Source of the DNA: Vulcanimicrobiota bacterium
GTDB lineage: Bacteria; Vulcanimicrobiota; Vulcanimicrobiia; Vulcanimicrobiales; Vulcanimicrobiaceae
DNA: 64,000 nucleotides
Assembly: GCA_963833095.1 (NCBI GenBank)
Contig: CAWHWQ010000008.1
Location: 165,906 to 229,905, forward strand
Direction of reading: 5' to 3'
Shown here piece by piece: positions 46,201 through 52,200 of this stretch. The first letter of the stretch is position 1; the number at the start of each line of letters is the position of its first letter. A program made the position numbers.

Positions 46201-49200
46201 TCGGCGATTTCGCATTGCTGGGCGCGTGGCCGCAGTGCGAGGTCATCGCGATCAAGAGCGGGCACGCGCTGCATGCGCAAGCGACGCGCGATTACACGCG
46301 CACATGCCCGGCTAGCGACGGAACGCGATGGCTGAACATCGACATCCGCGAGATCATGGAGATCTTGCCGCACCGCTATCCGATGCTGTTGATCGATCGC
46401 ATCCTGGAACTGGAGACCGATGAGCGTGCGCGCGCGGCTTACAAGAACATCACCGCCAACGAGCCGATGTTCACCGGACACTTTCCGGGCAATCCGGTGT
46501 TTCCCGGGGTGTACATGATCGAGGCGATGGCGCAGCTCGGCGGCGCGACGTGTGCTCGAGCCGGGCGAGTTGGCGCGCAAGATGCCGTATCTGGCCGGCA
46601 TCGACAAAGTGCAAGTTCCGCCGTCCGGTCGTTCCGGGCGACCGTCTCGAGATGGAAGTCGCGCTTGATGCGGCACAAGCGCAACATCGGTTGGGTCGCA
46701 CGGCGAAGCGACCGTCGACGGGCAGTTCGTCTGTTCGGCCGAGCTGATGTTTTCGATCGCCGCCGATCCGCGCAGCTTCGCCTCGATGCGCCGGTCCTGC
46801 ATGCGTGATTCACCCCACCGCCATCGTTCATCCGAGCGCCAACATCGCGCGGGGTGCCGAGATCGGCCCGTATTGCGTCGTCGGCGAGAACGTCACGATC
46901 GGTGCGGGCACCGTGCTGCAAGCGCACGTGGTCATCAACGGCTGGACGACGATCGGCGAAGACTGCGAGATCTACCCGTTCGCGTCGATCGGCGCTTCGT
47001 CGCAGGACCGCAAGTACGCCGGTGAGCGCGCGTACACGAAGATCGGCAACCGCACGGTGATGCGCGAATACGTGTCGGTCCAGCGCGCGACCGGCGAAGA
47101 CCAGGTAACGGCCGTCGGCGACGAATGCCTACTGCTCGCTTACGTGCACATCGCGCACAACTGCATCGTTCGGCAACGGCGTGACGATGTCCAACCTCGC
47201 GCAGCTCGCGGGCCACGTGGAGATCGGGGATCACGCGACGATCGGCGGGCAGGCCGGCGTGCATCAATTTACGCGCATCGGCGCTACGCGATGGTCGGCG
47301 GCGCGAGCAAGATCGCCAAAGACGTGCCGCCGTTCTTTTTGATCGAAGGCAACCCGGCCGAACCCTACGGGCTCAACTAGCGTCGGATTGCGCCGCGCCG
47401 GCTTCAGCGTCGAGGAGCGCAACGAGATCAAGAAGTTCTACAAGATCCTCTATAACCCAAAACTCAACGTTTCACAGGCGGTCGAGGAGATGAAGGCCGA
47501 AGCTTCGAGCGATCCGGGACGCGAATTGGTCGCGTTTCTCGAGGCCCCGTCGCAGCGCGGCATTTTGAAGTGATGGCTGGCTTCGCTCACACTAGGTGAT
47601 ATGCGTTATTTTTTCTCCACAGGGGAAGCCTCCGGCGAACTAAACGCGGTGCTGCTCGCTGCGGCGATCGAAAGCCGCGATGCGCAAGCGCAGTTCGAGG
47701 GCATCGGCGCCGAGCGTATGCGCAGCAAGCTTCACGCTTTGGCGCGATCACACCGGCTGGGCGAGCATGGGACCGCTCGCAGCGATTCCGCGCATTCCGC
47801 AGCTGCTCGTAACGATGTGGCGCACCGCGGCGCATCTGGCCGCCGAAAAACCCGACCTCATCGTGCTCGTCGACTTCGGCGCGTTCAACATGCGCTTGGC
47901 TAAGACGCTGCGCACGCGCCTGAAGTATGCCGGCCCCATTATCTACTTTTTCCGCCGGCAACGTGGCTCGACAAAGAGGGCGTCGCGCGCGCGGTCGGCG
48001 CGATGACGGTGCCGCTGACGGCGTTCGCGCATCAGTACGAGTTTTACAAATCGCACCGTCTTCCGATCATGTACTTCGGACATCCGCTCGCGGGACAGTA
48101 TGCGTTGCGTCCGCCCCAGCCCGCGCCGCCGCCGGACGGCGGAACGATCGCGCTCTTGCCGGGCAGCCGCGCCGGCGAATTGAAATATCACGTGCCGGCG
48201 CTGCTTGCCGCGCTGAAGATTTTGCGCGCGACCCGCCCGCGGCTGCGAGCCGTGTTCGGCGCGGCGGGCGCTCCGAGCGAGCGGATTATTGCGCGCGCGC
48301 TCAAGCGCGCCCGCGTTGAAAACGTGACGATCGCGCCCGGCGTCGCAGCCGCGATCGCGGGCGCCGATGCGGCGTGCGTCGCCTCGGGCACGGCGGTGCT
48401 CGAGACGGTGCTCGCCGGGGTTCCGGCGGTCGCGCTCTATATCGTCAATCCGATGGTGGCCGGCTACGGGCGGCGAATGCAAAAGAAGATCTTCAAAGCC
48501 CGCTACATCACGCTGCCGAATCTCGTGCTCGAGCGCGAACTCGTCCCCGAGCTATTGCAGGACGATGCGACGCCGCAAGCGCTCGCCGCCGCGATGGAGA
48601 CCGTGCTACGCGATCCCTCGCGACAATACGAGCAGTTTGCGGAGGTGCGCGCGCGCTTGGGTCCGCCCGACGCGCTTGATGATGCGCGCGAAATTCGCGG
48701 TTGCGCTAGCCAAGGCGGGACAGCGCTGATGCGGCTCTATCACACCTCGGATCTGCACGACCATCGCGGTTTCGTCGCGCGGCTGCGCGCGTTGCGCGAC
48801 GAGCGACCCGGCTTGCTCTTCGACTGCGGCGACTCGCTGCGCGGAAGCCAGACGGTGTATCATCGACGCGAGCCGATCATCGACGAGATCGATGCGGCCG
48901 GCTACGACGCGCAGGCGATCGGCAACCGCGAATTCCACTATCTGTATCCGCTGCTGCGCGCTCGCGCGCGTAAGATGATGCATCCGCTGGTGTGCAGCAA
49001 CTTGCTCGACACTAAGGGACGCGAACTGCCGTTTCTGCAGTCGATGACGATGCGTTTCGAGGACGTGACCATCCACGTCGTCGGGCTCCTGATCATGCAA
49101 TATCCGGTGGGCAGCCCTTGGGAGCGGATTTTCGGCTGGCGCTTTCTCGATCCGTGGGATGCGCTAGCGCCGCATGTCGAGCGTGTGCCCGACGGCGACA

Positions 49201-52200
49201 TGCTGGTCGTGCTTTCGCACGTCGGGCTTTCGCTCGATCGCGAGCTCGCGCAGCGCGTGCCGCGCATCGATCTGATCTTGGGTGGCCACAGCCACGACAC
49301 GCTCTTTGCGCCCGAGGTGGTCAACGGCGTGCCGATCGTGCACGCGGGACCGTACGGACAATACGTCTCGCGCACCGAGCTTGGGTACGATGCCGAGCGC
49401 AAACGCTTCGCGATCGACGATTTCGAACTCGTGCCGTTGCTCGGCGCGCCATGAGCTCTCGGCTGTTATTCATTACAAACGGGCATGGGGAGATTGCAAT
49501 AGCCGATCGCATCGCGCAGGAAGTGCACGCGCTCGACGGTGCGATTGCGATCGATCACTTTCCGTTGGTAGGCGATAGCCGTTCGGCGATCATGCGCGAG
49601 GTTGGGCCGCGACGGGTCATGCCAAGCGGCGGTCTGCTCGCGATGGGCAACCTGCGCAACATCGCGCGCGACGTGAGCAATGGTCTTTTGACGCTCACCT
49701 TTCGTCAGCGGCGCTTTTTGCAACGCGCGCGCGGTGAGTATGCGCGGGTCGTCGCGATCGGCGATGTGTTCGCGCTGCTGATGGGCCTTACGGTTCGCGC
49801 GCCGCTGACCTACGTTGGAACGGCCAAGAGCGTGCGCGTTGCGCCGTATGGTTTTTTCGAACGGCGCGCGCTGCGCCGCGCGGACGAGATCTTCGTGCGC
49901 GACGAACCGACGGCGCAGCGGCTGCGCGAGCAAGGAGTTGACGCCCGAGCGCCGGGCAATGTGATCGTCGATCTTTTCGGCGAGGACGATCCGCGAGCCG
50001 ATATCGCGGCGCAAGGTTTTGTGCCGATGCTCGCGGTCTTCCCCGGTAGCCGGCAGAGTTCGTATCCCGATGCGCGCTTTTTGCTCGAGGTCGTGCGTCG
50101 CGTGGCCCAGCATCGTCCACAGTTGGGCGCGGTCGTCTCGATTGCGCCGCTGCTGGATGCCGCAACCTTTGCGCGCGGATTTCGCGACGATGGGTGGGAG
50201 GTTGACGAACTCTCGGACGCGCGCGTTCCGTTTACTCTGCGGCAAAACGGCCGCGTCGTTGCGCGCGCGTGGAACGGTCCGATCGGTCCATTGCTGGCGC
50301 GGGCGCAGGTCGTGATGGGCCAAGCCGGTACCGCGAATGAAGCCGCCGCGGCCGCGGGCGTGCCGGTGGTCGCCTTCGAACGCAACCGCGATCGCAAGAC
50401 GACGTGGTATCGCATGCGCCAACACGGCTTGCTGGGCGAAGCGCTGGCGGTGTTGCCGGGAGATTTGTCACAGGCAGCGGCCAGTTTAGAAGCGCTGCTC
50501 GACGACGCGCCGCGCCGCGCGGTGATGGGTGCGCGAGGTCGCGAGCGGATGGGTGGGCCAGGCGGCGCGCGAGCCATCGCGCGCGAGATCGTCGAGCGGC
50601 TGTAGTGACGCGATTCGAACGACTCGAGGTTGGCGCAAACGCTGCGGCGTTCGCCTGCGTGCCGTTCTTTCCGAGCTTTATCACGCTGACCAACGTCGCA
50701 TTTCCGGGGGTTTCGATCGTTCCTCTGCCGCTGGCGCTTGCGCTACTGTGCGCGATGCTCGTGCTGGCGGTGGTCGCTGCCATCGGCATGCTGCGCCCAC
50801 CGCGCTATGAGCCGGTGCTGTTGCGGCCGATGCTGCTTTGGCTTGGTGCCTGTTTGGTCTCGCTCGCGCTAGGATTCAATGTGCGTGACGGCGCGGTGTT
50901 CATTCTCATCTTTGCGCTCACCGTGCTCTGGCACGCGAATATCGATCGCTACTACGCGCTGCCGGGGATGTCGCGGGCAATTTGGTGGGCGTACCTGCTC
51001 TCGGGCACGCTTGCGAGCATCGCGGCAATTGCTATGGTCGTGACGCGCATTCCGGCCGTCCAATATACGATCGCCAACGGTCGCGCGGTCGGAACGTTCG
51101 TCTTGCCCGGTGAGCTCGCGGGCTATTTGCTCTTCTTTCTTCCAATTGCGTTTGCGCTTGCGCGCAGCGCGCATGGCGCAGCGTTGCGCGCGCTCGGGTG
51201 GATCGGGTGCGTCGCCGGGTCGATCGCAATGATCTTGACCTTCTCGCGCACCGGCTGGGTGGGCTTCGCCGCCGGAATTGCCTTCTTGATCGTTCTGCGC
51301 TCGAACGCCGCTCGGGCGCGCGTCGTGCAAGGGATCGCGATCGTCGTGGCCGCGGTGGCGTCGTGTTGCTGACCTTCAACGAACACCACAATCCGAGCGA
51401 GAACTACACGCGGCTTTCGATCTGGCAGGCGGCGCTCGGACGTGATCGAGCGCTTTCCGCTCACCGGCGTCGGTCCGTTCGAATTTTCGAGAATCTACCC
51501 GTTCGTGCGTGTACCCGACGGTGATGCGACGCATATCATGCGCACAGCATGTACCTGACGATTTTAGCTGAGCTCGGGATCGTCGGATTTCTGGCATTTT
51601 GCTGGGTGATCTGGAGCTTTGCGCGCGAGTGGTTCCGGCGTTTTCGCGCGCTGCCTGCGCCGCGTCCTGCTGGCCAGCGCGATTGCAGCGGGACTCGTGG
51701 GCGTCGCCGTGCAAGGCCTGATCGATACCGTGAGCGTCGTGATCTTCGGCCTGCTGCTTCCCATGCTCGCGCTGGCTCTCGCCACCGCGCGCAGCGGCAC
51801 AGGTGATGCATGAGGCGACGGGTCGTTCTTGCAGCCGCGTGCTGGCGCTACTTTGCGCCTGCAATCCGAAGCGCCCAAAGCTCATCCGACGGCCGCTCCC
51901 AGCCCAAGCCCAACATCGACCTCGCTTTCGCTCAAGATCACCGGGCAGCGGCACCTCGGCGCAGCCGGTGCGCTTCGTAGCGCAGCAAGCGCGGAAATCG
52001 CGTCGAATACGATCTGCTGGCGCGCTCCTTCGAGAGCATCGGCGCCCAGGGCAATGCTCGCGTGAGCTTCGAGCGCGTACGCATCACCTTTCACGGAAAG
52101 GACGGGTCGACGTTGGTGGCCGATGCGCCGCAAGCGATTGTGGACCAGGTGACGAATACGATTGAAATGGTCGGACGGCGTGCGCGCGAAAAACAACGGG

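What a model noticed while it worked through the whole genome (the two positions that open the first line are those of the whole stretch)
48726..49454. Stand-alone UshA-type phosphoesterase with an LpxH-like Arg inside the lpx operon: candidate fourth UDP-diacylglucosamin [...]
Directly behind lpxB lies a 242-aa calcineurin-like phosphoesterase made of the catalytic domain of the UshA/5'-nucleotidase clade alone, without signal peptide, with the His of GNHE replaced by Arg (GNRE) as in LpxH. LpxH and LpxI were not found in the family, so this gene is the likely lipid X-forming enzyme of the phylum. The gene call g03221 joins it to lpxB through an assembly frameshift.
Evidence so far: Separate ORF next to lpxB in 20 of 20 family genomes; 80 of 80 GTDB loci beside the lpxB-related gene, 78 with lpxB, GNRE in 79; beside the lpxB-related gene in 16 of 19 loci of other families. 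LpxI 0 of 21, LpxH 0 of 21. Best PDB matches UshA N-domain by sequence and fold; look-alikes in Armatimonadota. V. alpinus has LPS and 3-OH fatty acids.
(Added by a program. Inside this text positions count along the whole contig: contig position 165,906 is position 1 of the stretch shown here. "Call 12" and the like, gene names such as g00115 and contig names such as C1 are that model's own, and its searches are not shown. The text may have been shortened before it was handed on; [...] marks where a part breaks off. The agent that wrote the report below was given it as the finding of a first reader that could run no searches.)

Follow-up and report, generated by a model that had tools for sequence, protein, structure and literature searches.

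The report
Candidate fourth lipid X-forming enzyme
A small metal-dependent enzyme, derived from a common nucleotidase, sits in the outer-membrane lipid gene cluster of two little-studied bacterial phyla in which the known enzymes for one essential step were not found, and it probably does that step, although nobody has assayed it.

Summary
Confirmed. 48729-49454(+) encodes a 241-aa stand-alone UshA-clade phosphoesterase with no signal peptide. It keeps all seven metal ligands, has Arg for the catalytic His (GNRE), and overlaps lpxB upstream and a TIGR03492 gene downstream. The lpxB fusion is a one-base assembly error. In 151 genomes of the phylum, LpxH and LpxI were not found. New here: the GNRE family is one clade that also occurs in about 91 of 111 Armatimonadota. 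These have lpxB, no LpxI or LpxH, and almost never TIGR03492; the gene there often lies between Kdo genes and ArnT-like genes. The loops around the active site gained hydrophobic and basic residues. Best reading (0.62): a fourth UDP-2,3-diacylglucosamine pyrophosphatase that gained the LpxH arginine independently. Against: no assay; 20 of 111 Armatimonadota, 19 or 20 of them with lpxB, and the cyanobacteria searched lack it; its steadiest neighbour is TIGR03492, not lpxB. The scan noted this before in another genome (e1-4301900).

The parts
48729..49454 (+). Stand-alone UshA-clade calcineurin-like phosphoesterase, 241 aa; metal ligands D8 H10 D35 N66 H164 H187 H189; R67 in place of the catalytic His; candidate UDP-2,3-diacylglucosamine pyrophosphatase
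47601..48729 (+). lpxB, lipid A disaccharide synthase. Frameshifted in this assembly; true stop TGA 48727-48729 overlaps the ATG of the phosphoesterase
   Evidence: Pfam LpxB on two pieces; tblastn with G136 LpxB covers 47601-48719
48684..48686 (+). Approximate place of the extra base that puts lpxB in frame with the phosphoesterase (assembly error)
   Evidence: DNA alignment to L056, L003, L004
49451..50605 (+). TIGR03492 LpxB-related GT-B protein, 384 aa, 4-nt overlap with the phosphoesterase; function unknown
   Evidence: NCBIfam 211.8 bits against a cut-off of 219.2; alignment A5
46805..47573 (+). lpxA-type hexapeptide acyltransferase (frameshifted near 47380 in this assembly)
   Evidence: Pfam Hexapep; intact lpxA at the same place in G136 and G011; end read
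45595..46808 (+). lpxC and fabZ (frameshifted in this assembly)
   Evidence: Pfam LpxC and FabA-like on 46125-46805; start from ORF list
52427..54233 (+). lptB-like ABC ATPase and lptF/G permease, downstream in the same cluster
   Evidence: Pfam LptF_LptG; lptB-lptG at the same place in G011; lptB in the window named from its translation

Best explanation
A cytoplasmic, probably peripheral inner-membrane, dimetal pyrophosphatase that carries out step 4 of lipid A synthesis (UDP-2,3-diacylglucosamine -> lipid X + UMP) and so supplies the acceptor for LpxB in Vulcanimicrobiota and most Armatimonadota. Shown: UshA N-domain fold, seven intact metal ligands, no signal peptide, no C-domain, His->Arg, loss of the Asp of the His-Asp dyad, LPS-gene context in two phyla, and no detectable LpxH or LpxI. 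Inferred: a metal-bound hydroxide attacks the alpha-phosphate while R67 holds the beta-phosphate of the leaving lipid X, as Arg80 does in LpxH. Also inferred: the hydrophobic and basic loops 38-48, 69-80 and 122-138 replace the lost nucleoside-binding domain and dock the enzyme on the membrane and acyl chains. It is not an LpxH orthologue; the arginine arose independently.
For: Pathway hole: LpxI 0/151 and LpxH 0/151 in the phylum; LpxG-like 0/151 over cut-off, and in the own class only 6/82 weak hits with E>=9.8e-7 (the own-genome LpxG hit matches in strength a CpdA-like protein). The gene is in 81/82 genomes of the class at E<=1.5e-62, with one copy in G000. lpxB is directly upstream in 32/32 class loci and within 0.4-3.8 kb in 16/18 loci of other classes. 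Armatimonadota: lpxB 110/111, LpxI 0/111, LpxH 0/111 over cut-off, this family about 91/111; 16/29 loci have kdsB/A/D/C directly upstream or ArnT-like genes directly downstream. TIGR03492 is over cut-off in 1/111 there, in a genome without the gene, so the enzyme does not need it. What the two phyla share, of the lipid A genes tested, is LpxB and the steps before it. GNRE members form one clade (61/61, support 0.917) with R 61/61 against H in 98% of 87 long relatives. In LpxH the same Arg binds the lipid X phosphate and is described as unique to LpxH (PMC5016852; PMC3087551). UshA is itself a UDP-sugar hydrolase, and the isolated CpdB N-domain loses monoesterase activity but keeps diesterase and CDP-choline activity (PMC7922932).
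Against: No assay. 20/111 Armatimonadota lack the family. The 11 of them placed on a tree form two LpxB clades, three are single-contig genomes, and several carry lpxB-msbA-waaA-lpxK-lpxL with no LpxI or LpxH, so lipid A can be made without any recognised hydrolase and the hole argument is not airtight. The short form was also not found among the 150 listed of 166 matches in 121 Cyanobacteriota. YkuE/LpxG-like proteins exist in the other classes of the phylum (59/69) and in 10/10 Armatimonadota tested. The steadiest neighbour is TIGR03492 (49/50 loci), with one clean fusion to it (P0139). The gene never lay beside lpxB in the 29 Armatimonadota loci, and 13/29 show no LPS neighbour. No LpxH-type helical lid; the acyl-binding surface is inferred from sequence only.
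Confidence: 0.62

Rival explanations
1. It acts later in the pathway, on a phosphate or phosphodiester of the lipid A disaccharide or inner core (for example removing the 1-phosphate), coupled to the TIGR03492 glycosyltransferase in a Kdo-free LPS.
For: Directly upstream of TIGR03492 in 49/50 phylum loci and 69/71 testable metagenome loci; one clean fusion, P0139. The phylum lacks WaaA (1/151 over cut-off) and LpxK (0/6 genomes over cut-off), like cyanobacteria, whose LPS lacks Kdo and phosphate (PMC3087551).
Against: About 91/111 Armatimonadota have the enzyme, but TIGR03492 is over cut-off in 1/111. Synechococcus and Deinococcus have TIGR03492 (control), while the short form was not found in Cyanobacteriota. 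LmtA-like methyltransferase genes lie between lpxB and the gene in 11/18 loci of other classes, which suggests the 1-phosphate is kept (inference). Losing the His and the C-domain removes monoesterase activity in CpdB (PMC7922932). This reading leaves step 4 without an enzyme. The fusion is a single sequence from one contig.
Confidence: 0.17
2. A housekeeping pyrophosphatase for soluble nucleotide sugars or nucleoside diphosphates (UDP-sugars, UDP released by LPS glycosyltransferases), kept near LPS genes to clear products.
For: The parent family hydrolyses UDP-sugars and CDP-alcohols (PMC7922932). Neighbours are varied sugar genes: kds genes, GT2/GT4 genes in L110. It is missing in lineages that still have lpxB.
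Against: The gain of hydrophobic and aromatic residues at 44, 72, 125 and 131 and of basic charge in three loops fits a membrane substrate better. A cytoplasmic UDP-sugar hydrolase would be wasteful (inference). It does not explain the missing LpxH/I/G in the class.
Confidence: 0.14
3. Half of a split 5'-nucleotidase that works with a separate C-domain protein, or a catalytically dead scaffold.
For: In one locus (L090) a stand-alone 5'-nucleotidase C-domain gene lies directly upstream. The catalytic His117/Asp120 pair is gone.
Against: No 5'-nucleotidase C-domain found in G000 (81% complete); 1 of 29 Armatimonadota loci only. The seven metal ligands are invariant in 60/60 aligned members, and LpxH is active with the same Arg.
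Confidence: 0.07

Closest known systems
LpxH (TIGR01854; PDB 5B49)
   Same: Calcineurin-like dimetal site, size about 240 aa, His->Arg in the GNx(E/D) motif, proposed reaction.
   Different: Different branch of the superfamily: fold Z 10.5, rmsd 3.4 A, 160 aligned, against Z 27 for UshA-type domains; E. coli LpxH scores 3.6 bits against the family profile, UshA 120; hhalign probability 1% against 99.9%; no four-helix insertion lid.
LpxG of Chlamydia (NF033458)
   Same: A precedent for independent recruitment of a calcineurin-like phosphoesterase to this step, found in an organism lacking LpxH and LpxI (PMC4807358).
   Different: LpxG has GNHD and an N-terminal transmembrane helix; the target has GNRE and no such helix, and does not match NF033458 at E<=0.1.
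UshA / CD73 / NadN / CpdB / SoxB catalytic N-domain
   Same: Closest by sequence and fold: Z 27.4, rmsd 2.5 A, about 230 of 241 aligned; same metal ligands; UshA cleaves UDP-sugars.
   Different: No signal peptide, no C-terminal specificity domain, His117->Arg and Asp120->His/Asn, hydrophobic and basic loops around the site, LPS-gene context.
LpxI (PF06230)
   Same: [quoted passage not shown]
   Different: Unrelated protein that attacks the beta-phosphate (PMC4807358); no match to the target; not found in either phylum.

Membership tests
LpxH | Match to TIGR01854 / orthology with E. coli LpxH | tested here: not met
   No hit at E<=0.1; 3.6 bits; probability 1%
LpxH | Arg in place of His in the third motif | tested here: met
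   GNRE, R67; 61/61 members
LpxH | Dimetal ligands D-x-H, GD, GN, H, H-x-H | tested here: met
   D8 H10 D35 N66 H164 H187 H189 invariant
LpxH | Four-helix insertion domain forming the acyl-chain cavity | tested here: not met
   The model (pLDDT 96) aligns over its whole length to UshA N-domains; 5B49 aligns on only 160 of 239 residues
LpxH / LpxG / LpxI (function) | Hydrolysis of UDP-DAGn to lipid X; rescue of lpxH loss | not testable with these tools
   Needs assay or complementation
LpxG | NF033458 match, GNHD motif, N-terminal transmembrane helix | tested here: not met
   No hit; GNRE; the first Asp ligand is residue 8, leaving no room for a helix
LpxI | PF06230 domain | tested here: not met
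   Only PF00149 matches
UshA/5'-nucleotidase family | N-terminal metallophosphoesterase domain of the UshA type | tested here: met
   Z 27.4; hhalign 99.9% to E. coli UshA
UshA/5'-nucleotidase family | C-terminal substrate-binding domain (PF02872) | tested here: not met
   ORF ends at 241 aa; no longer GNRE form with PF02872 seen among the sequences inspected; none in G000
UshA/5'-nucleotidase family | Catalytic His117-Asp120 dyad | tested here: not met
   R 100%, H/N 91% at these columns
UshA/5'-nucleotidase family | Export signal peptide | tested here: not met
   7-24 residues up to the first Asp ligand in the 55 of 61 members where the motif pattern matched; no signal-peptide predictor was run

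The most novel reading that the evidence does not exclude
A fourth, independently evolved lipid X-forming enzyme: a periplasmic-type nucleotidase lost its signal peptide and specificity domain, converged on the LpxH arginine, and became the step-4 enzyme in the ancestor of Vulcanimicrobiota and Armatimonadota. Its neighbour TIGR03492, present where WaaA was not found and nearly absent where WaaA was seen, may be the unknown first-sugar transferase of Kdo-free LPS (this second part is a weaker inference, about 0.35).
Probability: 0.6. Interest if true: 0.75.

Novelty: new variant of a known kind. Interest (0 to 1): 0.66.

Why it matters
Step 4 of lipid A synthesis is the one step known to be done by unrelated enzymes (LpxH, LpxI, LpxG), and deep-branching diderm phyla are listed without any (Cyanobacteria and Dictyoglomi in PMC3087551). 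A fourth type from the UshA clade would fill the gap for two phyla, show that the 'LpxH-only' arginine arose twice, and bear on how the ancestral LPS pathway was built. It can be tested directly with the published E. coli lpxH complementation. The results also sharpen the remaining gap: the cyanobacteria searched and two Armatimonadota lineages still have no candidate.

Tried and rejected
Complex prediction of the phosphoesterase with the TIGR03492 protein gave no answer (score 0.15, mark 0.32) and is not used as evidence. Longer 'fusions' were checked: the five read (P0277, P0278, P0294, P0311, P0317) contain out-of-frame stretches and are treated as frameshift artefacts; P0307 and P0339 were not read. 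The hope that the family explains cyanobacteria failed: all 150 listed matches lie in open frames of 490 aa or more, and 19 of the top 20 loci read have GNHD/GNHE. I looked for a substitute hydrolase in the Armatimonadota lacking the gene: nothing obvious beside lpxB in 11 loci; the seven clearer LpxH2-like hits all lie in genomes that have the gene; YkuE-like hits are in both groups. No relative in viral contigs. The metagenome scan aimed at a divergent subclade returned only 33-41% matches with the Vulcanimicrobiia-type layout, so that subclade's hosts stay unknown. The Atlas gave only Metallophos clusters, the top three from Vulcanimicrobiota and Armatimonadota. Literature searches listed no paper naming such an enzyme; the library lacks most subscription journals and no supplements were read.
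Full report
Observation. The window holds an outer-membrane gene cluster in a frameshift-rich assembly. Its ATG overlaps the lpxB stop, and its stop overlaps the ATG of a TIGR03492 'lipid-A-disaccharide synthase-related' gene. The 483-aa frame joining it to half of lpxB is an artefact: against three relatives the window has one extra base near 48684-48686. Named relatives place the genome in Vulcanimicrobiota/Eremiobacterota (source labels).

What the protein is. Pfam gives Metallophos only. Sequence and fold both point to the catalytic N-domain of UshA/CD73/NadN/SoxB. The model (pLDDT 96) scores Z 27.4, rmsd 2.5 A over 229-231 residues against these, and Z 10.5, rmsd 3.4 A over 160 residues against LpxH 5B49. 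The family profile scores E. coli UshA at 120 bits, YaeI at 4.8 and LpxH at 3.6. All seven metal ligands are invariant. The column of UshA His117 is Arg in 61 of 61 members (60 short proteins plus the fusion P0139) and His in 98% of 87 long relatives; Asp120 becomes His or Asn. Of 63 short representatives in the profile search, 61 show GNRE as first motif, a 62nd and 63rd show it as second motif, and the long ones are GNHE/GNHD types. With 40 randomly chosen long relatives and UshA as root, the 61 form one clade (FastTree support 0.917) with two branches. Compared with long relatives, members gained hydrophobic residues at positions 44 (0.93 against 0.26), 72 (0.82 against 0.01), 125 (0.98 against 0.24) and 131 (0.80 against 0.15), and K/R at 79 (0.98 against 0.31) and 133. 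Net charge in the three loops is +0.9, +2.3 and +1.1 against +0.1, -0.5 and -1.0. The overall hydrophobic fraction rose clearly only in the third loop (0.42 against 0.25), little in the second and not in the first; the rest of the domain is also less acidic, so the charge shift is not confined to the loops. That these loops bind membrane and acyl chains is inference.

Own phylum. 150 of 151 genomes match; in the own class 81 of 82 do so at E<=1.5e-62 (the tallies include the unpublished G128). I read 50 loci: GNRE in 50, TIGR03492 directly downstream in 49, lpxB directly upstream in 32 of 32 class loci and 0.4-3.8 kb upstream in 16 of 18 others. In the other classes a second LpxB-like gene, an LmtA-like methyltransferase (11 of 18) or a small membrane protein lie between. 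The weakest hits (family f6, E about 1e-20 to 1e-27) were not read. Metagenome loci repeat the class layout (lpxB within 300 nt in 72 of 74 testable, TIGR03492 in 69 of 71) but are close kin, not independent. LpxI was found in 0 of 151 and LpxH in 0 of 151, with controls ringing. The LpxG model is over cut-off in 0 of 151; YkuE-like hits occur in 59 of 69 genomes of other classes but in the own class only as 6 weak hits in 82. The five other PF00149 proteins of G000 are CpdA-, YfcE- and TIGR00282-like. WaaA is over cut-off in 1 of 151, a genome with 9% contamination; LpxK in 0 of 6 tested. V. alpinus is described with an LPS-covered outer membrane and abundant 3-OH fatty acids (PMC9758169, passages).

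Second phylum. A scan with the other branch returned 80 loci; the 30 with GNRE/GNRD carried Armatimonadota titles except two 'uncultured bacterium' records and one UBP13 record, none of 47 others read had the Arg, and 3 were not read. In 111 genomes of that phylum lpxB matched in 110, LpxI in 0, LpxH in 0 over cut-off, TIGR03492 in 1 over cut-off. About 91 hold the family, judged by score and frame length; the motif was read in only a subset. There the gene is not beside lpxB. In 16 of 29 loci it follows kdsD-kdsC or kdsB-kdsA-kdsD, or precedes ArnT-like (Pfam PMT_2) genes; 13 show no LPS neighbour. The gene names kdsA-D and ArnT are my reading of Pfam domains (SIS+CBS, HAD, DAHP synthase, cytidylyltransferase, PMT_2), and the 16 loci are related genomes. 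So the family is tied to LPS genes in two different ways and does not depend on TIGR03492.

Results against. Eighteen Armatimonadota had no match at 1e-25; on re-search at 1e-5, 17 still had none and one a weak partial hit, and two more have only non-Arg relatives. The 11 placed on an LpxB tree form two clades with support 1.0, and several have lpxB-msbA-waaA-lpxK-lpxL, so the absence is real at lineage level and no replacement was identified. The short form was not seen in 121 Cyanobacteriota. YkuE/LpxG-like proteins are present in 10 of 10 Armatimonadota tested, so LpxG-like paralogues are excluded only for the own class. One clean fusion joins the enzyme to TIGR03492, not to LpxB (P0139, a single sequence).

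Mechanism. In LpxH, Arg80 replaces the usual His and salt-bridges the lipid X phosphate while metal-bound hydroxide attacks the alpha-phosphate (PMC5016852, passages). LpxG shows that another calcineurin-like branch was recruited to the same step with alpha-attack and Mn2+ (PMC4807358, parts 1-2 of 5 read). UshA is a UDP-sugar hydrolase, and the isolated CpdB N-domain nearly loses 3'-nucleotidase activity yet keeps diesterase activity and gains kcat on CDP-choline (PMC7922932, passages). A C-domain-less, Arg-bearing, cytoplasmic UshA domain is therefore more likely a pyrophosphatase than a monophosphatase. Joined with the context and the pathway hole, I put UDP-DAGn hydrolysis at 0.62, a later lipid A step at 0.17, soluble nucleotide-sugar housekeeping at 0.14 and a split or dead enzyme at 0.07.

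Comparison and novelty. It most likely works like LpxH but is not a member of LpxH, LpxG or LpxI, and it fails the C-domain, signal-peptide and His-Asp tests of the UshA family. I class it as a new variant of a known kind. Eight literature searches listed no description; passages of PMC3087551, PMC13018214 and PMC13721041 name no step-4 enzyme beyond LpxH, LpxH2, LpxI and LpxG. Papers outside the library and unread supplements could hold a mention. The scan proposed the same idea earlier on another genome (e1-4301900); that is not independent support.

Noticed in passing
window 49451-50605; TIGR03492 and WaaA look complementary: Vulcanimicrobiota have TIGR03492 and WaaA was found in 1 of 151; Armatimonadota almost never have TIGR03492 and WaaA was seen beside lpxB in several loci; the Synechococcus control has TIGR03492 and no WaaA. 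It may be the first-sugar transferase of Kdo-free LPS.
   Followed up: partly
L168-L170, L172-L174 (G247, G200, G226, G187, G213, G174): FabZ-LpxA fusion protein (486-564 aa ORFs) in one Armatimonadota clade, the same clade that lacks the GNRE enzyme.
   Followed up: partly
L035-L050, e.g. L036:7383-7967, L043:8860-10827: LmtA-like methyltransferase and a second LpxB-like GT-B gene (fused in L043 and L047) follow lpxB in other classes of the phylum; LmtA-like genes also follow lpxB in several Armatimonadota. A GnnA-like dehydrogenase precedes lpxA in several loci (GnnA is my label for the NF040723 match).
   Followed up: no
L090:2051-2767: A stand-alone 5'-nucleotidase C-terminal domain gene directly upstream of a GNRE member in one Armatimonadota genome.
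   Followed up: partly
L167:9987-11015; L192: A separate 330-340 aa GNNE-type UshA-clade phosphoesterase occurs in some Armatimonadota, about 1.1 kb upstream of lpxB in G225.
   Followed up: no
L044:5541-7890: Two tandem TIGR03492 genes follow the phosphoesterase in G016.
   Followed up: no
window 39599-44341: bamA-like gene followed by what look like several skp/ompH-like genes, all broken by frameshifts; named from the translations only.
   Followed up: no
window 39500-54300: Many genes of this cluster are frameshifted while G136 and G011 have intact lpxD, lpxA and lpxB, so apparent fusions and pseudogenes in this assembly should be distrusted.
   Followed up: partly
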